Shown here one piece after another: positions 29,201 through 37,434 of a stretch of 64,000 bases of DNA (the first letter of the stretch is position 1; each line of letters starts with the position of its first letter). Position numbers and translations under genes: made by a program. The notes under the pieces were generated by a model. That model was not told the DNA's origin. It worked only from the letters and a program-made list of their open reading frames with translations, and did no database searches. The DNA comes from Escherichia phage FV3: sequence record NC_019517.1. One strand, 5' to 3'.

Positions 29201-29277
29201 TGGTCTCCACGGAGTGATTCGAACACTCGACCTCCTGATCCCAAATCAGGCGCTCTACCAAGCTGAGCTACGCGGAG
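29201..29277 (-). tRNA. tRNA-Pro: tRNA-Pro (anticodon UGG)
   Basis: Hand-folded cloverleaf: 7-bp acceptor stem, T-arm with TTCGAAT loop, anticodon loop UUUGGGA, encoded CCA. Confidence 0.7.
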
Positions 29278-29288
29278 TATTTATAATT

Positions 29289-29363
29289 TGGTGGCCCTGG
29301 GTGGAATTGAACCACCGTCTGGCGATTATGAGTCGCTTGCTTGAACCTTCCAGCTACAGGGCC
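29289..29363 (-). tRNA. tRNA-Met: tRNA-Met/Ile2-type (anticodon CAU)
   Basis: Cloverleaf with perfect acceptor stem GGCCCTG/CAGGGCC, anticodon loop CUCAUAA, encoded CCA. Met versus lysidine-Ile cannot be distinguished. Confidence 0.65.
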
Positions 29364-29364
29364 A

Positions 29365-29440
29365 TGGTGCTGATAGCAGGACTCGAACCTGCAACCTATT
29401 GATTACAAATCAATTGCACTACCAATTGTGCTACATCAGC
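29365..29440 (-). tRNA. tRNA-Thr: tRNA-Thr (anticodon UGU)
   Basis: Cloverleaf: acceptor GCTGATG/TATCAGC, D-arm GCAC/GTGC, anticodon stem ATTGA/TCAAT with loop UUUGUAA, T-loop TTCGAGT, encoded CCA. Confidence 0.7.
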
Positions 29441-29447
29441 AAAAAGG

Positions 29448-29544
29448 TGCTAGGTGATGGAATCGAACCACCTATGTATTCAACGACTACCTCGTCTATT
29501 TTCAGGATTAAAAATCCTCGCCCTTGCCAAAGGGCTTACCTAGC
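29448..29544 (-). tRNA. Atypical tRNA-like gene (97 nt; possible UUU/Lys anticodon, about 30-nt extra arm, no encoded CCA)
   Basis: Perfect 7-bp acceptor (GCTAGGT/ACCTAGC), canonical D-arm (GCCC-TTTGGCAA-GGGC) and T-arm (GGTGG-TTCGATT-CCATC), but anticodon stem is 4 bp plus a mismatch and an unusually long region lies between anticodon arm and T-arm. Confidence 0.4.
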
Positions 29545-29642
29545 TCAGTATGTTGACCATGTTGCTAGTCGGCGATGACGACTGTAACATTTGATAATCC
29601 GGTTCTGCTTCCGGCTTTCGCTTAATTACAAGGTCAACAATA

Positions 29643-29733
29643 TGGCTGAGGGTAATGGAATCGAACCATCATCGAGTCATCCTCAACGGGACGGTTTTCA
29701 AGACCGCTTGAGCACCATTGCTCCCTACCCTCA
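29643..29733 (-). tRNA. tRNA-Ser: tRNA-Ser (anticodon UGA), class II
   Basis: 91-nt cloverleaf with long variable arm; anticodon stem GCGGT/ACCGT, loop CUUGAAA; encoded CCA. Confidence 0.65.
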
Positions 29734-29847
29734 TTTATAAACAATACTGATAATGACACTGATTTTCGAGCAGTTAGTGACTAGTATAAACGACGATAAA
29801 TATCAATGCCATTATCTGTATGATTTATGCATTTAAAAATATAAATT

Positions 29848-29934
29848 TGGTGGGGAGTGGTGGAGTCGAACCACCCGAGTCGCAATGACAATAGATTTAC
29901 AGTCTACACCGCTACCTCTACGGGATAACTCCCC
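29848..29934 (-). tRNA. tRNA-Tyr: tRNA-Tyr (anticodon GUA), class II
   Basis: 87-nt cloverleaf; acceptor GGGGAGT/ACTCCCC, anticodon loop CUGUAAA, T-loop TTCGACT, encoded CCA. Confidence 0.65.
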
Positions 29935-29938
29935 AATT

Positions 29939-30013
29939 TGGCACCCCGTACTGGACTCGAACCAGTGTCAACGGCTTAGAAGGCCGCTGCTTTATCCACT
30001 AAGCTAACAGGGC
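29939..30013 (-). tRNA. tRNA-Arg: tRNA-Arg (anticodon UCU)
   Basis: 75-nt cloverleaf; anticodon stem GCGGC/GCCGT, loop CUUCUAA; T-loop TTCGAGT; encoded CCA. Confidence 0.65.
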
Positions 30014-31989: not shown

Positions 31990-32270
31990 ACACAGCTGTG
32001 GGGAGATTTAGGAGCCTTCTTGTCCGTTTCCACACATAAACTTTAACCAAACTCGCGCGGGAGTCTCTCAACCGACTCCTTACGGCGCTGGCAAGCTTTC
32101 GTCGGTGGTCCACATTAGTGCTCGGCCTTTGGCCTGCGCTATCGCTTCGCTCCCACACATGTTAACAGTCCTGCATGTATGCACTCCTGTTATTGTGTGC
32201 ACTATGGAGGCCCGGCATCTCGCCCCTCGTAGGCGAGTGCCAATGAGGGGCCGACACTACCCATAATAAG
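31990..32270. other. ORF-free GC-rich structured segment (candidate ncRNA or replication-associated structure)
   Basis: About 280 bp richer in GC than surroundings, with multiple nested inverted repeats (ggagtc-N8-gactcc, ctcgcc-N7-ggcgag, gcccctc...gaggggc, ggcctttggcc); no ORF of 60 aa or more on either strand. Confidence 0.3.
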
Positions 32271-32294
32271 TAATAAATTTAAAACATGGTACTT

Positions 32295-32396
32295 AGGATC
32301 TAGTATATTCTACATAAGTTAAGTATATGTACTTTAGTACCATAAGTACTAGATCTTTTATTTTTATTATTTAGTTATTTTAGTTATATTCTTTAT
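32295..32396. repeat. AT-rich tract with inverted repeats (GATCTAGTA / TACTAGATC) and short direct repeats
   Basis: Inverted 9-mers at about 32305-32313 and 32347-32357; then AT-rich run with ttagttat direct repeats (32357-32396); resembles a DNA-unwinding element. Confidence 0.4.
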
Positions 32397-32479
32397 GTGT
32401 CCGTATTGCGGACAGTTAGTGTCCGTATTACGGGCAGATGTGCCCGCGTGACGGACAGTAGTGTCCGTATCACGGACAG
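32397..32479. repeat. Four tandem palindromic 19-bp repeats (iteron / operator-like array)
   Basis: GTGTCCGTATTGCGGACAG (32397), GTGTCCGTATTACGGGCAG (32419), GTGCCCGCGTGACGGACAG (32440), GTGTCCGTATCACGGACAG (32461); each is a dyad GTCCG-N5-CGGAC; spacing 22/21/21 bp. Confidence 0.7.
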
Positions 32480-32553
32480 TTACTATCCTCTGCTCTTGGG
32501 TGGACATAAAACATACGAATCCTTATAGTACAGATATTTAAGTTTTTACTGGT

Positions 32554-32904
32554 CTAACCAGTTGTTGACATTAGAATAACCTCTTCTGGTGGCAAAACTT
32601 TGGAAAATGTGCATCTTTTACCTCTCCCTTGTGTGGATATTTCAACCACTCCTGCACATTCTAAAGTTTTAACGCACGCTGCTGCTTTTGTTTTCTTTAT
32701 CCCAACATCTGCTGCAATTTTCCTTGTGCTTGGTGTGAAGCGTGAATTTCCTCCAAGCTTATACCAGTTGTGCAGGTAGCAGTATACGATCTTGTCATAT
32801 AAGTCAAGAACAACAACCTCCCCGGTTGTGTCATTCAAAACTTTTGACATAGACAGTATTTCAAGGGGGACTTTAAGATATAGCAGCTTATCCCCATCTT
32901 TCAT
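32554..32904 (-). CDS. Putative winged-helix / HTH DNA-binding protein (116 aa)
   Basis: Helix-turn-helix-like segment (STRKIAADVGIKKTKAAACVKTLECAGVVEI); gene ends about 75 bp from the palindromic repeat array. Confidence 0.4.
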   Translation of the reverse strand: MKDGDKLLYLKVPLEILSMSKVLNDTTGEVVVLDLYDKIVYCYLHNWYKLGGNSRFTPSTRKIAADVGIKKTKAAACVKTLECAGVVEISTQGRGKRCTFSKVLPPEEVILMSTTG

Positions 32905-32951
32905 ATCTCCTGATTCTCCTTGTGTGGCAATTTTCTTTAAAATAGCAGGGA

Positions 32952-33506
32952 TTACTCCCCGCTGTCAATAGCAAGACTCATTGCAATACGGTATGCCTCT
33001 TCTAATGGTAAGAGTCTCCCCCACACATCCCAACCGACATCAAACTGCCTGCCAAACAACTGCTGTGTGGTTCCGTGAGCATGACCGAACAGTTGGACTG
33101 ATCCGTGAGGCTTTCTGTTCCACTTTGCAAACTGGTAATGGCTCATACAGATCAAATTCTTGTTGTGGCGAAGCTCGTAATAATCTACAACCTCATGACC
33201 GAACTCTTTCATAATTCTGACAGTCGTCCTTGTGTCATGGTTACCACGAACAAGAATAATATGTCCGTTCAACATATTTAGAACATCTGGGAGCAATTTG
33301 TTGATATTCTTATCCTTAGTGCATGCAATATCGCCCAAGTGAAACACAGTGTCTTCCGGTGACACAACAGAGTTCCACTCGGCGATGATTCCTGCATTCA
33401 TACTGTCAAGATTGCGATCATACTGAGATCTGTGTTTTTGACATGAATCAAACTCCATGACTCGCTGGTGGAGAAAGTGTGTATCGCTTGTTACAAAATA
33501 TTTCAT
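32952..33506 (-). CDS. Calcineurin-like metallophosphoesterase (candidate RNA 2',3'-phosphatase)
   Basis: 184-aa ORF with metallophosphoesterase motifs (SDTHF..., GDIA, GNHD, GHAH); adjacent to P-loop kinase gene. Confidence 0.55.
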   Translation of the reverse strand: MKYFVTSDTHFLHQRVMEFDSCQKHRSQYDRNLDSMNAGIIAEWNSVVSPEDTVFHLGDIACTKDKNINKLLPDVLNMLNGHIILVRGNHDTRTTVRIMKEFGHEVVDYYELRHNKNLICMSHYQFAKWNRKPHGSVQLFGHAHGTTQQLFGRQFDVGWDVWGRLLPLEEAYRIAMSLAIDSGE

Positions 33507-33513
33507 ACATCCC

Positions 33514-33924
33514 TCATTTTAGTTTAATGCAGTTTTTAAGCTCACGCTCCATACGGTCCACAACCCTATTTGGAACATCATGAATGCTCTTATTACCGTG
33601 GCGGTTTTCAACCACGATCACAGTATAACTATACCCATGACTGATTGCCATGTCAACATATTCTTGCACATGTTTTTCTTTTGTAAACGTATTACTTACC
33701 ACGACACGGTCGTATCCCATACGCATCATATCTTCTACGTTATCTTTGCACCATTTTGCTGCAAGTGTTACTTTACTTGCATCCCAGTTGTAATTTCCAT
33801 CGTCGTCGTACCAGAACATGTCGTTCTCAAAATGTGGGTACAGCCCCTCTAAAGATAGTGCATTTGCCAGTGTTGATTTGCCAGAACCTGGTAGACCACG
33901 CACGATATATAGCATTTTAGACAT
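33514..33924 (-). CDS. P-loop polynucleotide kinase-like protein
   Basis: 136-aa ORF with Walker A (GLPGSGKST) at N-terminus, resembling the kinase domain of polynucleotide kinase. Confidence 0.55.
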   Translation of the reverse strand: MSKMLYIVRGLPGSGKSTLANALSLEGLYPHFENDMFWYDDDGNYNWDASKVTLAAKWCKDNVEDMMRMGYDRVVVSNTFTKEKHVQEYVDMAISHGYSYTVIVVENRHGNKSIHDVPNRVVDRMERELKNCIKLK

Positions 33925-33952
33925 AGTATTCCTCCGTTTTAATTTTAATGGT

Positions 33953-33981
33953 AGTATACATAACTCTTTTGTTCATTTCAA
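33953..33981 (-). promoter_or_regulatory. Sigma70-type promoter for kinase / phosphoesterase operon
   Basis: Minus strand TTGAAA (33981-33976), 17 nt, TATACT (33958-33953), followed by GGAGG and ATG 33924; lies in the divergent region opposite the plus-strand early operon. Confidence 0.5.
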
Positions 33982-34024
33982 GTGTTGACACGAGTTTATT
34001 TGTGTGGCAAGATAGAGTGACAAA

Positions 34025-34960
34025 ATGGCAAACGAGGAATGTATGATGAAGTATTTTAATGCAGATGATTTGGTGGATAAAGGTCTTGTAACCAGTCGGT
34101 ATTATCCAGATCTTGGATTAAAGATCTATAAATATGCCAGAAAAGTATTCTACAACAATTTATGGCATTTGTCTCCGCGTTTACTAGAGTGCCGAGGAAT
34201 TGTTGTCGGTAATGAAGGAAATGTTGTGGCATGGCCCTTCACAAAAGTGTTTAACTTGGGAGAAAATTCCACCAACCTGCCTGACAATAAACTTGTGACG
34301 GCGGTAGAGAAAAAGAACGGATTCCTTGGTGTGGTATCATCTCACAAAGGTGAACTGTTGTTCTCAACAACCGGGTCTCTTGATTCTCCATATTGTAACC
34401 TTGCAAAGGAAACAATCCAGGAGCAATGTGGTAATTTAGATCTTATCAAGAAGGTTATGGGCCATGAAAACATGACATTCATGTTTGAAATTTGTCACCC
34501 TTCAGATCCGCATATTGTTCAGGAAGATCATGGCGCATATTTGATAGGTTTCAGATATAATGATTCTGGAATAATGCTACCAGAAGCAGCTTTAGATGGG
34601 ATTGCCAAATACCTTGGTGCAAAACGTCCTCACACTGTGCGTGAAATTCCGTTCAGCTATGCAAAAGAATTAGCTGCAGAAACAAGAGGTGAAGGGTATA
34701 TGATTCGTAAGCCTTACTACCCTTATGATCTGCAGCTGAAGATCAAGTCTCCATACTATTTGGCACGGAAGGCCGTAATGAGGGGTAAAGCTTGGAAGAT
34801 TTGGGATAATGATATCTTTAAACGTGTTGACGAAGAGTTTTACGGCATGGTAAACTTCATTCGTAGAAACTACACAGAAGATGTGTGGAATTGCCTCCTG
34901 GAGCAGGAACGCCGTGAGATACTTGACTGCTATTTCCACAACGAGGACTATATGCAATGA
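34025..34960 (+). CDS. Putative ATP-dependent RNA ligase-like nucleotidyltransferase
   Basis: 311-aa ORF with ligase-type motifs: motif I lysine (EKKNGFLG), motif IV (EGYMIRK), motif V (LKIKSP). True start may be ATG 34043 or 34046 after GAGGA SD. Confidence 0.45.
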   Translation: MANEECMMKYFNADDLVDKGLVTSRYYPDLGLKIYKYARKVFYNNLWHLSPRLLECRGIVVGNEGNVVAWPFTKVFNLGENSTNLPDNKLVTAVEKKNGFLGVVSSHKGELLFSTTGSLDSPYCNLAKETIQEQCGNLDLIKKVMGHENMTFMFEICHPSDPHIVQEDHGAYLIGFRYNDSGIMLPEAALDGIAKYLGAKRPHTVREIPFSYAKELAAETRGEGYMIRKPYYPYDLQLKIKSPYYLARKAVMRGKAWKIWDNDIFKRVDEEFYGMVNFIRRNYTEDVWNCLLEQERREILDCYFHNEDYMQ

Positions 34961-35307
34961 AGAAGTTGATTGTGTGGCTGGATGACTTGAGAGATCCGTC
35001 AAATTATGGGCTCCCAGATGCTCTTTGGCTAAAGAATTCCTCTGAGTTTATGGATTTTATTAACGATAAGGGAAAGCTCTACAGGCGCGTTTCTGAGTGG
35101 CACATGGACAACGACCTTGGAGAGGTATTTGAAGGGTACGATTGCCTATCTATGCTGGAAGAAAAATTTGTATTTGGTAAGCCTCCTGTAGTTGACAACG
35201 TGAAGATTTTCGTGCATACTTCTAACCCATCAGCCGCTCGTAAATTCATGCTTGCTGCTGACTCGTTTAAAAAGTTTGGAATAGAGATTAAACAAAACAT
35301 CTACTGA
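34957..35307 (+). CDS. Hypothetical protein (116 aa)
   Basis: ORF translationally coupled (ATGA overlap) to the ligase-like gene and immediately upstream of the Sir2-like gene. Confidence 0.3.
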   Translation: MKKLIVWLDDLRDPSNYGLPDALWLKNSSEFMDFINDKGKLYRRVSEWHMDNDLGEVFEGYDCLSMLEEKFVFGKPPVVDNVKIFVHTSNPSAARKFMLAADSFKKFGIEIKQNIY

Positions 35308-35315
35308 GGACACTT

Positions 35316-36077
35316 ATGCGACGACTGATCATTATCTCCGGTGCTGGTTTGAGCGCTGAATCTGGTATCCCAACTTTCCGATCTGGTGGCACTGCAATGT
35401 GGGAGAATTTCAGCATCGATGAGGTGTGTAACATCCACACCTTTGCCAAGAACTACTATAAGGTACATGACTTTTACAATGCACGGCGTGTAGCTTTGGG
35501 GAGTGTTGAGCCTAACCTTGCACATCTCCGGATCGCTGAGTGGTATTCCCGCTGGTCTGGTCGTGTGATCAACCTGACCACCAATGTAGATGATTTGCTG
35601 GAGCGTGCTGGTGTAAAACATGAAGATATTTTGCATGTCCACGGGTATTTGCCAGAAATAGTTTATGAGGATGATGAAGGGAATGACGTCATTAAAGACA
35701 TTGGATACTCTGAGGTAGATGCAAGCGAGTATACTTGGGTCAAGCCTAATGTAGTGTTCTTCGGAGAAGTAGCTCCAAAGTATGTAGACATGTATGACCT
35801 GTTGACTTCTCTGACGAGCAATGATATGGTTATCCTTGTAGGGTGCTCCAACACAGTTATCAATTTTAACTGGGAGCTATTCCCTGCCTGTAATAAGGGG
35901 ACTAAACTACTGATCGTTAACAAATACGACTCACAGCATTTAGGGGAGAATGGCATTTCACGTAGTGACATTTACCAGTATGAGGATCGCGGAATCCCAG
36001 TTTGGTTTAACGGGGCGGTTGACGCTTTCTCTGATAAAACATTCATTGACATCGTAGAAAACTTTATGGAACTGTAA
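35316..36077 (+). CDS. Sir2-family (sirtuin-like) NAD-binding protein lacking zinc ribbon
   Basis: 253-aa ORF with sirtuin Rossmann-fold motifs in order: GAGLSAESGIPTFRSGG, TTNVDDL, catalytic-His motif HVHG, VVFFGE, ILVGCS, LLIVN; no CxxC...CxxC zinc-binding pairs. Confidence 0.65.
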   Translation: MRRLIIISGAGLSAESGIPTFRSGGTAMWENFSIDEVCNIHTFAKNYYKVHDFYNARRVALGSVEPNLAHLRIAEWYSRWSGRVINLTTNVDDLLERAGVKHEDILHVHGYLPEIVYEDDEGNDVIKDIGYSEVDASEYTWVKPNVVFFGEVAPKYVDMYDLLTSLTSNDMVILVGCSNTVINFNWELFPACNKGTKLLIVNKYDSQHLGENGISRSDIYQYEDRGIPVWFNGAVDAFSDKTFIDIVENFMEL

Positions 36078-36091
36078 GCGGAGGCCTTTTA

Positions 36092-36805
36092 ATGCTGAAT
36101 ACTAAACTGATCGACAACCTGGAAAAACTGTCTCAGCCTGAAAACTACCTTTGGTCTGCCAACTGGGTGGAAAATTGGAACCGTGTAGCAGCTAAAGTGA
36201 AAAAATCATACACACCATTCGAACTTCAGCTGAGTTTCATTGAGGAAGAGTTCAATGAAGTTTTGGAAGAGTTGGAGAAAGGTGATGGTGGGGATCATCT
36301 CCTAAAAGAGGCCTGCGATCTTCACGTTGTCACAAGTTATGCCGCTTATCTTGTTAACGATAACCATGAAAAGTGGTCAAACCTGTTTGATAATCCGCGA
36401 GGTCTTAAGTTTAAGATCGGTGAATTTTATGATACACTGATCGCTGCGAAAAATACCTCTAAGCAAAGAGCGTCTGCTTACCGCTTAGCAGAGTTGTCAA
36501 CAGCTTTGCTGTTCCAGCTTCGCGGTGATGTGTGCGGGATGATGCGGAAGGTTCTAAAATCTAATGACAGCAAGTTTGCACGCGTCAACCATCTGCGGTA
36601 TTCACACGGTGCCAGTGCAGATATGCCTGCTGAACAACTCATCGAGTTGGAGATTAAAGATCTTGAGCGACGCTTTGATGGTCGCTATGAAGGTTTTGTT
36701 GCTAAAGAAGAATTCTACAACGGAAATAAAGTTATCATATTCCTCGACAGTAAAGGTAAGATTATGAAGCCTTCGAGCTTCAAGGATGTAACAGAATATA
36801 TTTAA
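36092..36805 (+). CDS. MazG-like nucleotide pyrophosphohydrolase domain protein
   Basis: 237-aa ORF; N-terminal region has the all-alpha NTP-PPase acidic motif (IEEEFNEVLEELEKGD...EACDL). Confidence 0.45.
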   Translation: MLNTKLIDNLEKLSQPENYLWSANWVENWNRVAAKVKKSYTPFELQLSFIEEEFNEVLEELEKGDGGDHLLKEACDLHVVTSYAAYLVNDNHEKWSNLFDNPRGLKFKIGEFYDTLIAAKNTSKQRASAYRLAELSTALLFQLRGDVCGMMRKVLKSNDSKFARVNHLRYSHGASADMPAEQLIELEIKDLERRFDGRYEGFVAKEEFYNGNKVIIFLDSKGKIMKPSSFKDVTEYI

Positions 36806-36811
36806 TAACAT

Positions 36812-36840
36812 AGCCGGGGTGATCCCGGCTTTACTTGTTT
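36812..36840 (+). terminator. Intrinsic terminator after MazG-like gene
   Basis: agccggg-gtgat-cccggct stem-loop followed by T-rich tract. Confidence 0.5.
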
Positions 36841-36869
36841 CGGAAAGTATGCAAGTGAGGTAGAAAGTT

Positions 36870-37178
36870 ATGTACAAGCACTCTAGAGATCTTGAAAACG
36901 ATGCTGTGTTTGGTGATCAGATGAAAGAATTGGTTAAACTTATAGGTAGGATAGAGGATAAGTTTGACACTAAGATCTACATCGACAGCAAAGTATTCAA
37001 CCACAAAATATGGACAAATTTGTGTGTTGGACTACATGGGGATAAAGATGTGGTAAATTTAGTTGTAATTAAGTTCATAGTGTGGCAGAATAAGACTATA
37101 AGTTATTACGATCCGCACCTGCTTGTTTACCCGATAAAAGACCTATTAGAGAAGGAGGACTGCAATGCCGTTATTTAA
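36870..37178 (+). CDS. Hypothetical protein (102 aa)
   Basis: ORF with plausible SD; no motif. Confidence 0.3.
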   Translation: MYKHSRDLENDAVFGDQMKELVKLIGRIEDKFDTKIYIDSKVFNHKIWTNLCVGLHGDKDVVNLVVIKFIVWQNKTISYYDPHLLVYPIKDLLEKEDCNAVI

Positions 37179-37434
37179 TCTTGCTAAACCTGTAGAAGCA
37201 CACCAGTTTGACGGAAGCTCTTCATCAGTATCTGATCTGCAACGGTGGATTGATACAGGTGTGTTTACATCGTCACCTGTTCGAACCAGAGATATTCTTC
37301 GCATGTGTGAGCTTGTCGAGCCGTTTGGTAACCTGGTCTTGTACCAAGGGGATTGGTTAGTTGACTTTATGGGAGACTGGTTGGTAATGAGCAAAGAAGA
37401 GATGTTTAAAATTTTTAAGGAAGAGGCTGAGTAA
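37165..37434 (+). CDS. Hypothetical protein (89 aa)
   Basis: ORF coupled (TAATG) to DNA ligase gene. Confidence 0.3.
   Translation: MPLFNLAKPVEAHQFDGSSSSVSDLQRWIDTGVFTSSPVRTRDILRMCELVEPFGNLVLYQGDWLVDFMGDWLVMSKEEMFKIFKEEAE

What the first reader, a model, noticed from the sequence alone, without database searches (positions are those of the whole stretch)
32952..34960. Split RNA-repair gene set (kinase, metallophosphoesterase, ligase-like) divergently arranged beside the tRNA cluster
A P-loop kinase (33514..33924) and a calcineurin-like phosphoesterase (32952..33506) on the minus strand face, across a divergent promoter region, a plus-strand protein with ligase-type motifs (KxNG, EGYMIRK, LKIK). 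Together these are the three activities of a Pnkp/Rnl RNA-healing-and-sealing pathway, here as separate polypeptides, with the phosphatase of metallophosphoesterase type as in bacterial Pnkp rather than the HAD type of T4 Pnk. Such pathways are known to reverse anticodon-nuclease damage to tRNAs, so the placement about 3 kb from the phage tRNA cluster suggests a counter-defence module.
Basis: partly seen in the sequence, partly recalled or inferred. Interest (0 to 1): 0.7.

Follow-up and report, generated by a model that had tools for sequence, protein, structure and literature searches.

The report
Phage RNA-repair gene cluster, already described
This stretch of an rV5-like E. coli phage carries a kinase, a metallophosphoesterase and a T4 Rnl1-like RNA ligase that very probably mend cut RNA, but the cluster is already annotated and was published as a predicted repair system in 2022.

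Summary
The three ORFs exist at the stated coordinates. All three carry intact catalytic motifs and match the expected families.

- **Kinase:** its predicted fold is closest to the T4 and C. thermocellum polynucleotide kinases.
- **Phosphoesterase:** a complete binuclear metallophosphoesterase.

Across 82 phage loci the three genes travel together. They usually abut on one strand, and in 11 loci the kinase is fused to the ligase. The RNA heal-and-seal reading is therefore well supported in silico.

It is not new. The window is a Vequintavirus, 95-98% identical to GenBank phages that already annotate these genes. Iyer et al. 2022 described this exact "phage V5" neighbourhood.

The ligase is co-transcribed with a cREC protein, a sirtuin and a MazG-like pyrophosphatase.

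Two sub-claims are weak:
- The phosphoesterase belongs to the aq_1665 clade, not the Pnkp/lambda-phosphatase clade.
- Closeness to tRNA genes is not conserved in relatives.

Transposon data on the near-identical phage Bas54 show the genes are dispensable on E. coli K-12. No biochemical evidence exists.

The parts
32952..33506 (-). Calcineurin-like binuclear metallophosphoesterase, 184 aa. Predicted healer of 2',3'-cyclic-phosphate or 3'-phosphate ends.
   Evidence: Pfam Metallophos_2/Metallophos and phrog_547 at 1e-51. D8, H10, G58-D59, G88-N89-H90, H123 and G141-H142-x-H144 are invariant in 30 homologues. The family profile matches aq_1665 (1XM7) at 3.9e-28 over its full length. A member of this family lies within 6 kb of the ligase in 64 of 82 loci.
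33514..33924 (-). Small P-loop kinase, 136 aa. Predicted polynucleotide 5'-OH kinase.
   Evidence: Pfam AAA_33; phrog_2071 and phrog_505 'polynucleotide kinase'. The Walker A motif, D35, S77-N78-T79 and E106-N-R-H-G110 are conserved. Foldseek gives TM-scores (query-normalised, TMq) of 0.77-0.78 to T4 Pnk and 0.73-0.75 to the C. thermocellum kinase. In 11 related loci the kinase is fused N-terminally to the ligase.
33925..34042 (.). Divergent intergenic control region.
   Evidence: Minus-strand TTGAAA-17-TATACT at 33981-33953. Plus-strand TTGACA at 33986-33991, and a GAGGA Shine-Dalgarno sequence at 34034-34038. The Gotham record places a predicted promoter at the equivalent minus-strand position.
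34043..34960 (+). Rnl1-family ATP-dependent RNA ligase, 305 aa. The ORF opens at 34025; the likely start is 34043 or 34046.
34957..35307 (+). cREC (cyclic-phosphate-processing receiver-like) protein, 116 aa. Its start codon overlaps the ligase stop codon.
   Evidence: Pfam cREC_REC (PF20274) at 4.5e-14; phrog_1479. Annotated as such in phage HMD-6.
35316..36077 (+). Sirtuin (Sir2 family, CobB/Sirt5-like core), 253 aa.
   Evidence: Pfam SIR2 at 8e-27; phrog_2162 at 8e-109. The PDB alignment keeps GAGxSxxSGIPxFR, TxNxD and the HG histidine, but breaks across residues 112-142, where canonical sirtuins carry the Zn module.
36092..36805 (+). MazG-like nucleotide pyrophosphohydrolase, 237 aa.
   Evidence: phrog_671 at 5e-22. 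No Pfam or NCBIfam hit. Iyer et al. 2022 list it as MazG in this neighbourhood.
36812..36830 (.). GC-rich hairpin; terminator-like site that closes the plus-strand operon.
   Evidence: 8 pairs, 6 of them GC, followed by a T-rich tail. The Gotham record annotates a terminator at the same place.

Best explanation
This is an accessory RNA end-healing and end-sealing cassette of an rV5-like (Vequintavirus) phage, arranged as two divergent operons.

The inferred mechanism runs as follows. [quoted passage not shown] The metallophosphoesterase, possibly helped by the cREC protein, removes the cyclic or 3'-phosphate to give a 3'-OH. The small P-loop kinase phosphorylates the 5'-OH. The Rnl1-type ligase is adenylylated on K96 and joins the two ends.

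Kinase, phosphoesterase and ligase form the conserved core, found in many phage lineages. In Vequintavirinae-type phages the ligase operon also carries cREC, a sirtuin and a MazG-like pyrophosphatase. Iyer et al. propose these as an NAD-dependent branch for 2'-phosphate ends.

What is shown here: family membership, intact active-site motifs, predicted folds, gene linkage and gene fusion. What is inferred: the substrates, the order of steps and the counter-defence role.
For: **Ligase**
- Pfam RNA_lig_T4_1 scores above its cutoff.
- The family profile hits T4 Rnl1 at 1.1e-12, with K96, E223-G224 and K239/K241 aligned to the T4 motifs.

**Kinase**
- The full-length PDB profile hits are Pnkp1, T4 Pnk, PSTK and the C. 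thermocellum Pnkp kinase domain.
- Foldseek TMq is 0.73-0.78 to polynucleotide kinases, against 0.43-0.60 to nucleotide and sugar kinases.
- D35 aligns with the catalytic Asp of the RDD motif.
- The phage has a separate dNMP kinase elsewhere in its genome.

**Phosphoesterase**
- All metal-binding motifs are invariant.

**Genomic context**
- In 82 loci with ligase relatives at 36-88% identity, the kinase is present in 72 (11 as kinase-ligase fusions) and the phosphoesterase in 64.
- Of 41 ligase clusters at 70% identity, 30 have both partners within 6 kb.
- 58 of 61 separate kinase genes and 61 of 64 phosphoesterase genes are on the ligase strand, with median gaps of 1 and 154 bp.
- Gene order varies (MPE-LIG-KIN, KIN-LIG-MPE, LIG-MPE-KIN). 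This argues for selection on linkage rather than inherited synteny.
- Elsewhere the kinase pairs with the same phosphoesterase family, or lies near a HAD_PNKP phosphatase.

**Operon and literature**
- cREC, Sir2 and MazG-like genes are co-directional with the ligase up to a terminator.
- Iyer et al. 2022 made the same prediction for this neighbourhood.
- In Bas54, whose six proteins are 96-98% identical to these, the genes tolerate transposon insertions. That is expected of a conditional accessory function.
Against: - No enzyme of this cassette has been assayed.
- The ligase has only about 65 C-terminal residues where T4 Rnl1 has its tRNA-specificity domain. It scores 39 bits against a 242-bit cutoff for the T4 RnlA equivalog model. 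tRNA as the substrate is therefore unproven.
- The kinase lacks the equivalent of T4 Pnk R38 (T4 numbering is from my own knowledge).
- The phosphoesterase family is very large: 8321 cluster representatives at E <= 1e-30. Its only solved close relative, aq_1665, has no known function. A 3'-end-healing activity therefore rests on context alone.
- Bas54 mutants showed no significant fitness change in the host-comparison table I could read (log2FC 0.1-0.4, adjusted p >= 0.75). No cognate host nuclease is known.
- tRNA adjacency is not conserved in relatives.
Confidence: 0.65

Rival explanations
1. The components are the same but the chemistry is yeast-like (Trl1/Tpt1 type). cREC or the phosphoesterase opens the cyclic phosphate to a 2'-phosphate with a 3'-OH. 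The ligase seals a junction that carries the 2'-phosphate. The sirtuin then removes the 2'-phosphate with NAD+, in place of Tpt1/KptA, and the MazG-like enzyme clears the nucleotide by-product. This is the proposal of Iyer et al. 2022.
For: - cREC, Sir2 and MazG-like genes sit in the ligase operon, and the cREC start overlaps the ligase stop.
- The sirtuin keeps its NAD-binding motifs and the catalytic His, but is atypical where canonical sirtuins carry the Zn module.
- The literature proposes exactly this.
Against: - Only 13-14 of 82 ligase loci carry cREC, Sir2 or MazG, and those three genes are not strictly coupled to one another. The ligase family evidently works without them.
- No sirtuin has been shown to act as an RNA 2'-phosphotransferase (one search says these roles are uncharacterised).
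- The presence of a full phosphoesterase suggests direct removal of the phosphate.
Confidence: 0.15
2. The kinase and phosphoesterase heal DNA ends (5'-OH, 3'-phosphate) for the phage ATP-dependent DNA ligase. The cassette would then be a DNA nick and break repair unit rather than an RNA repair unit.
For: - An ATP-dependent DNA ligase lies 2.5 kb downstream (37434-38717) and within 6 kb of the RNA ligase in 44 of 82 loci.
- The cassette borders the replication and nucleotide-metabolism block.
- T4 Pnkp acts on DNA as well as RNA (own knowledge).
Against: - The kinase is fused to the RNA ligase, never to the DNA ligase.
- The median kinase-to-RNA-ligase gap is 1 bp.
- The ligase adjoining the healing enzymes is of the Rnl1/Trl1 clade.
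Confidence: 0.07
3. The genes have unrelated functions that merely sit together. The phosphoesterase, cREC, sirtuin and MazG-like proteins would degrade host immune signalling nucleotides or manipulate NAD+. The kinase would act on nucleotides. The ligase would have another role, such as the tail-fibre attachment that is carried over in its annotation from T4 gp63.
For: - The phosphoesterase family is huge and mostly not ligase-linked.
- Phage calcineurin-like, cREC and Nudix/MazG enzymes are also proposed to attack cyclic-nucleotide and ADPr signals.
- Several public records label the ligase 'tail attachment'.
Against: - The three-gene linkage persists with shuffled gene order across 30 of 41 ligase clusters, and kinase-ligase fusions exist.
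- The Bas54 ligase tolerates insertions at 56 of 60 TA sites, unlike T4 rnlA, whose N-terminal domain does not tolerate them. An essential virion-assembly role is therefore unlikely.
Confidence: 0.08

Closest known systems
Sirtuin-centred predicted RNA-repair neighbourhood, type 2, of 'Escherichia phage V5 and Proteus phage Mydo' (Iyer, Burroughs, Anantharaman and Aravind 2022, Viruses 14:1977, section 3.7.3)
   Same: It is the same locus in the same phage group: T4-like tRNA ligase, cREC, nucleotide kinase, MazG, sirtuin and a calcineurin-like phosphoesterase.
   Different: Nothing essential differs. That paper centres on the sirtuin and calls the phosphoesterase 'occasional'. Seen from the ligase, the kinase and phosphoesterase are the common partners (72 and 64 of 82 loci) and the sirtuin, cREC and MazG are the minority (13-14 of 82).
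Phage T4 Pnkp (PseT) plus Rnl1 (RnlA), the tRNA-Lys repair pathway that counters PrrC
   Different: - The healing enzyme is split into two proteins.
- The phosphatase is a binuclear metallophosphoesterase, not a HAD/DxDxT domain.
- The ligase is about 70 aa shorter, lacks a T4-like C-terminal domain, and fails the RnlA equivalog model.
- Extra cREC, Sir2 and MazG-like genes are present.
Bacterial Pnkp-Hen1 (Clostridium thermocellum) and Pnkp1-Rnl-Hen1 RNA repair systems
   Same: The combination is the same: a P-loop 5'-kinase, a metallophosphoesterase-superfamily end-healing enzyme and an adenylyltransferase ligase. The kinase resembles the C. thermocellum Pnkp and Pnkp1 kinases.
   Different: - The phosphoesterase profile does not detect the Pnkp or lambda-phosphatase clade at E <= 1.
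- I saw no Hen1 methyltransferase in the annotated 45 kb around the cassette, and the proteins are separate.
Fungal and plant tRNA ligase Trl1 (LIG-KIN-CPD) with Tpt1
   Different: - Domain order in the phage fusions is KIN-LIG, whereas Trl1 is LIG-KIN-CPD.
- There is no 2H CPD domain.
- A sirtuin replaces the Tpt1/KptA fold.
- A requirement for a 2'-phosphate is untested.

Membership tests
Rnl1 family of ATP-dependent RNA ligases (Pfam PF09511, T4 RnlA-like) | Covalent nucleotidyltransferase motifs with a lysine nucleophile: I KxxG, III, IV EGxx, V xKxK | tested here: met
   K96-K-N-G99, E155, E223-G224 and K239/K241 are invariant in 22 homologues and aligned to the T4 Rnl1 motifs.
Rnl1 family of ATP-dependent RNA ligases (Pfam PF09511, T4 RnlA-like) | Significant match to the family model, with the closest fold among ligases | tested here: met
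Rnl1 family of ATP-dependent RNA ligases (Pfam PF09511, T4 RnlA-like) | T4 RnlA orthology, including the C-terminal tRNA-specificity domain | tested here: not met
   NCBIfam equivalog TIGR02308 scores 39 bits against a cutoff of 242. Only about 65 helical residues follow motif V. The profile match to T4 Rnl1 stops at T4 residue 250.
Rnl1 family of ATP-dependent RNA ligases (Pfam PF09511, T4 RnlA-like) | ATP-dependent sealing of 3'-OH/5'-PO4 RNA ends | not testable with these tools
   Requires an enzyme assay.
Polynucleotide 5'-OH kinases (T4 Pnk, C. thermocellum Pnkp and Pnkp1 kinase clade of P-loop kinases) | Walker A P-loop plus a catalytic Asp that activates the 5'-OH | tested here: met
   G10-x4-G15-K16-S/T is invariant, as is D35, which aligns to the first Asp of the RDD motif of Pnkp1.
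Polynucleotide 5'-OH kinases (T4 Pnk, C. thermocellum Pnkp and Pnkp1 kinase clade of P-loop kinases) | Closer to polynucleotide kinases than to nucleotide or sugar kinases | tested here: met
   Foldseek TMq is 0.77-0.78 to T4 Pnk and 0.73-0.75 to the C. thermocellum kinase, against 0.43-0.60 to NMP, shikimate and gluconate kinases. Sequence E-values are weak, from 1.7e-4 to 1e-2.
Polynucleotide 5'-OH kinases (T4 Pnk, C. thermocellum Pnkp and Pnkp1 kinase clade of P-loop kinases) | Polynucleotide-binding arginine (T4 R38 equivalent) | tested here: not met
   The aligned position is W38, and F/Y/H in the rest of the family. T4 numbering is from my own knowledge. The invariant R108-H109 might substitute, but this is untested.
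Polynucleotide 5'-OH kinases (T4 Pnk, C. thermocellum Pnkp and Pnkp1 kinase clade of P-loop kinases) | Functional coupling to an RNA ligase | tested here: met
   There are 11 loci with KIN-LIG fusion proteins of 421-432 aa. The median kinase-to-ligase gap is 1 bp in the other loci.
Bacterial Pnkp-type phosphatase (lambda-phosphatase-like clade of metallophosphoesterases) | Binuclear metal-site motifs DxH, GD, GNH(D/E), H, GHxH | tested here: met
   D8-x-H10, G58-D59, G88-N89-H90-D91, H123 and G141-H142-x-H144 are invariant.
Bacterial Pnkp-type phosphatase (lambda-phosphatase-like clade of metallophosphoesterases) | Sequence membership of the Pnkp/lambda-phosphatase clade | tested here: not met
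   The family profile run against all PDB sequences at E <= 1 finds aq_1665 (3.9e-28), GpdQ, P. putida MPE nuclease, YfcE and Rv0805. It finds no Pnkp phosphatase or lambda phosphatase.
Bacterial Pnkp-type phosphatase (lambda-phosphatase-like clade of metallophosphoesterases) | 2',3'-cyclic phosphodiesterase and 3'-phosphomonoesterase activity on RNA ends | not testable with these tools
   Requires an enzyme assay.
Sirtuin-centred phage RNA-repair neighbourhood, type 2 (Iyer et al. 2022) | Sirtuin linked to a T4-like ligase, cREC, a nucleotide kinase and MazG, with or without a calcineurin-like phosphoesterase | tested here: met
   All six genes lie between 32952 and 36805. The paper names phage V5 as the prototype. 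The window is a Vequintavirus.

The most novel reading that the evidence does not exclude
The short (about 300 aa) Rnl1-like ligase, its 130-aa kinase and the aq_1665-type metallophosphoesterase form a distinct, widespread phage RNA-repair cassette. In Vequintavirinae it has recruited a Zn-module-less sirtuin as an NAD-dependent RNA 2'-phosphotransferase. That would be a bacterial-virus analogue of the eukaryal Trl1/Tpt1 pathway, built from an unrelated fold, and the first RNA-directed catalytic role for a sirtuin.
Probability: 0.15. Interest if true: 0.65.

Novelty: already known. Interest (0 to 1): 0.25.

Why it matters
If the prediction is right, rV5-like phages, which are under study for therapy and biocontrol of E. 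coli, carry a repair kit that can undo RNA-cutting host defences. It would be built from different parts than the T4 paradigm.

The value lies in experimental follow-up, not in discovery. None of these enzymes has been assayed. The aq_1665-type phosphoesterase family has no known function. The proposed sirtuin role is untested.

As a scan finding, it rediscovers a published and annotated gene neighbourhood.

Tried and rejected
- **Single-sequence PDB searches.** Searching the ligase and the kinase alone found nothing meaningful. Family profiles were needed.
- **tRNA proximity as a conserved feature.** Rejected. About 12 of 58 related loci have a tRNA within 6 kb, and none of the non-Vequintavirus close relatives do.
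- **Phosphoesterase fusions.** I looked for fusions to a ligase or a kinase among the best 150 of more than 25,000 family members and found none. The long members are a tandem duplication and two intein-like insertions.
- **A phosphatase next to the kinase-ligase fusions.** Pfam found none in L037 or L044.
- **Relation of the phosphoesterase to the Pnkp phosphatase.** No hit.
- **Small kinase as the phage dNMP kinase.** Unlikely, because a separate dNMP kinase is annotated elsewhere in the genome.
- **'Tail fibre attachment' label on the ligase.** Unlikely to reflect an essential role, because the Bas54 orthologue is non-essential.
- **Burroughs and Aravind 2016 (NAR).** The paper is not held in the library.
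- **Rfam.** It found only the tRNAs in 28.5-38 kb.
Full report
**What the window is.** The region 32000-37000 is 95-98% identical at nucleotide level to Escherichia phages of the genus Vequintavirus (rV5-like). It is 90% or more identical to 120 phage records in all (taxonomy). The finding sits at a major divergence point of the genome. To its left, on the minus strand, lie small ORFs, a tRNA cluster and then the lysis, terminase and structural genes. To its right, on the plus strand, lie the DNA ligase, exonucleases, RNase H, a dNMP kinase, thymidylate synthase and ribonucleotide reductase.

**Observation.** The three ORFs exist exactly as described.

- The 184-aa protein matches Metallophos_2 and Metallophos. 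The 136-aa protein matches AAA_33. The 311-aa protein matches RNA_lig_T4_1. All three score above Pfam's cutoffs.
- PHROGs gives 'phosphoesterase', 'ATPase / polynucleotide kinase' and 'RNA ligase'.
- The quoted ligase motifs fall on invariant columns of a 22-member family alignment: K96-x-N98-G99, E155, E223-G224 and K239/K241.
- The 100-bp spacer carries a minus-strand TTGAAA-17-TATACT site and a plus-strand TTGACA.
- The ligase probably starts at 34043 or 34046, behind a GAGGA Shine-Dalgarno sequence. This agrees with public annotation and with where the homologues start.
- The tRNA cluster at 29201-30013 is 2.9 kb away.

**The ligase.**

- A profile of the family finds T4 Rnl1 (2C5U and 9DO4) at about 1e-12 over the nucleotidyltransferase domain and finds no other ligase.
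- It is therefore an Rnl1/Trl1-clade RNA ligase.
- It is not a T4 RnlA orthologue. It scores 39 bits against a cutoff of 242 for the RnlA equivalog model. Only about 65 helical residues follow motif V, where T4 Rnl1 carries its tRNA-specificity domain (own knowledge). Substrate specificity is therefore open.

**The kinase.**

- The family has more than 8000 members, most of them 127-143 aa.
- It conserves the Walker A motif, D35, an SNT motif and an ENRHG motif.
- The only PDB profile hits that extend beyond the P-loop are Pnkp1, T4 Pnk, the tRNA kinase PSTK and the C. thermocellum Pnkp kinase domain, at E 1.7e-4 to 1e-2.
- The model has pLDDT 83. It superposes best on T4 Pnk (Foldseek TMq 0.77-0.78) and the C. 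thermocellum kinase (0.73-0.75). Nucleotide and sugar kinases give 0.43-0.60.
- The equivalent of T4 R38 is not conserved.

**The phosphoesterase.**

- All binuclear-site motifs are invariant.
- Its family profile matches Aquifex aq_1665 (1XM7, function unknown) at 3.9e-28. More distant hits are GpdQ, the P. putida MPE nuclease, YfcE and Rv0805. It does not match the Pnkp phosphatase domain or lambda phosphatase.
- The family is very large and mostly standalone.
- 'As in bacterial Pnkp' is thus true only at superfamily level. An end-healing role rests on genomic context.

**Context, which is the strongest evidence.** A scan of IMG/VR returned 80 loci encoding ligase relatives at 36-88% identity. 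HMM searches of their ORFs gave the following:

- The kinase is present in 72 of 82 loci and the phosphoesterase in 64 of 82.
- After clustering the ligases at 70% identity, 30 of 41 clusters have both partners within 6 kb.
- 58 of 61 separate kinase genes and 61 of 64 phosphoesterase genes are on the ligase strand, with median gaps of 1 and 154 bp.
- Gene order varies: MPE-LIG-KIN, KIN-LIG-MPE and LIG-MPE-KIN.
- In 11 loci the kinase is fused to the N-terminus of the ligase, giving proteins of 421-432 aa.
- Only the rV5-like loci have the divergent layout.

Elsewhere, the kinase is found directly upstream of the same phosphoesterase family in a 283-kb phage contig. In other phage contigs it lies near a HAD_PNKP-type phosphatase. 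Together this makes a shared pathway for the three proteins very likely.

The ligase is the first gene of a four-gene operon:

- a cREC 'cyclic-phosphate processing receiver' protein, whose start overlaps the ligase stop;
- a sirtuin;
- a MazG-like pyrophosphatase;
- a terminator hairpin at 36812-36830.

The sirtuin keeps its NAD-binding motifs and the catalytic HG. Its alignment to solved sirtuins breaks where the Zn module should be. These three genes accompany the ligase in only 13-14 of 82 loci, so they are a lineage-specific addition to a three-gene core.

**tRNA proximity.** Only about 12 of 58 related loci have any tRNA within 6 kb. None of the nearer non-Vequintavirus relatives do. The adjacency here is not evidence of function.

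**Prior knowledge.**

[quoted passage not shown] They propose NAD-dependent clean-up of cyclic-phosphate ends.
- Their 2021 jumbo-phage paper states the general logic of a ligase with a polynucleotide kinase and a phosphoesterase.
- GenBank records already label the genes 'polynucleotide kinase', 'phosphoesterase', 'RNA ligase' and 'cyclic-phosphate processing receiver domain-containing protein'.
- I found no biochemical study.

**Experimental data.** The only data I found are from the HIDEN-SEQ preprint. In phage Bas54, the six proteins are 95.6-97.7% identical to those of the window. The ligase, kinase, phosphoesterase, sirtuin and MazG-like genes are classed non-essential on E. coli K-12, and cREC is classed intermediate. 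None shows a significant change in the host comparison I could read. This fits a conditional accessory function. It argues against an essential tail-fibre role for the ligase. It leaves the cognate host nuclease unknown.

**Verdict.** The RNA heal-and-seal interpretation is well supported computationally but is not demonstrated. The finding is already known, both as annotation and as a published prediction. The incremental points from this analysis are:

- the conserved three-gene core and the kinase-ligase fusions;
- the non-Pnkp clade of the phosphoesterase;
- the truncated C-terminus of the ligase;
- the true six-gene extent of the unit.

Noticed in passing
window 29448-29544 (-): A 97-nt tRNA with anticodon loop UUUUUAA (UUU, Lys) and a variable arm of about 26 nt that has its own 5-bp stem. 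ARAGORN miscalls it '???', Rfam tRNA gives 35.5 bits, and public records call it tRNA-Lys-TTT. A class-II-like tRNA-Lys is unusual. tRNA-Lys(UUU) is the classical target of PrrC-type nucleases (own knowledge), so this could be a cleavage-resistant substitute.
   Followed up: partly
window 32395-32480: Four tandem 21-22-bp repeats, each containing the palindrome GTCCGTAT..CGGAC. They lie just downstream of the minus-strand winged-helix gene 32554-32904 (phrog_12838 'replication initiation protein'). The array looks like iterons or operators.
   Followed up: no
proteins P0453 and P0466 (relatives of the phosphoesterase): Two 494-498-aa members of the phosphoesterase family carry an insertion of about 300 aa that looks intein-like by eye. 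It sits exactly inside the GHxH metal-binding motif.
   Followed up: no
L037 5560-6825, L044 5527-6825 and 9 other loci: Kinase-ligase fusion proteins of 421-432 aa with no recognisable phosphatase nearby. L037 also has an Rnl2-like ligase (PF09414 plus the PHA02142 OB domain) 1.7 kb away.
   Followed up: partly
L083 5001-6055; L084 2709-5390: The same small kinase sits directly upstream of the same phosphoesterase family in a 283-kb phage contig, with no ligase of this family within 5 kb. In other phage contigs it lies about 1.8 kb downstream of a HAD_PNKP-type phosphatase.
   Followed up: partly
window 35316-36077 (+): The sirtuin has no cysteines in the segment where sirtuins normally carry the Zn-binding module, and its alignment to Sirt5/CobB breaks at residues 112-142.
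   Followed up: no
L047 10399-10801 and L052 11208-11604: ARAGORN predicts phage-encoded tmRNA genes a few kb from the kinase-ligase fusion gene.
   Followed up: no
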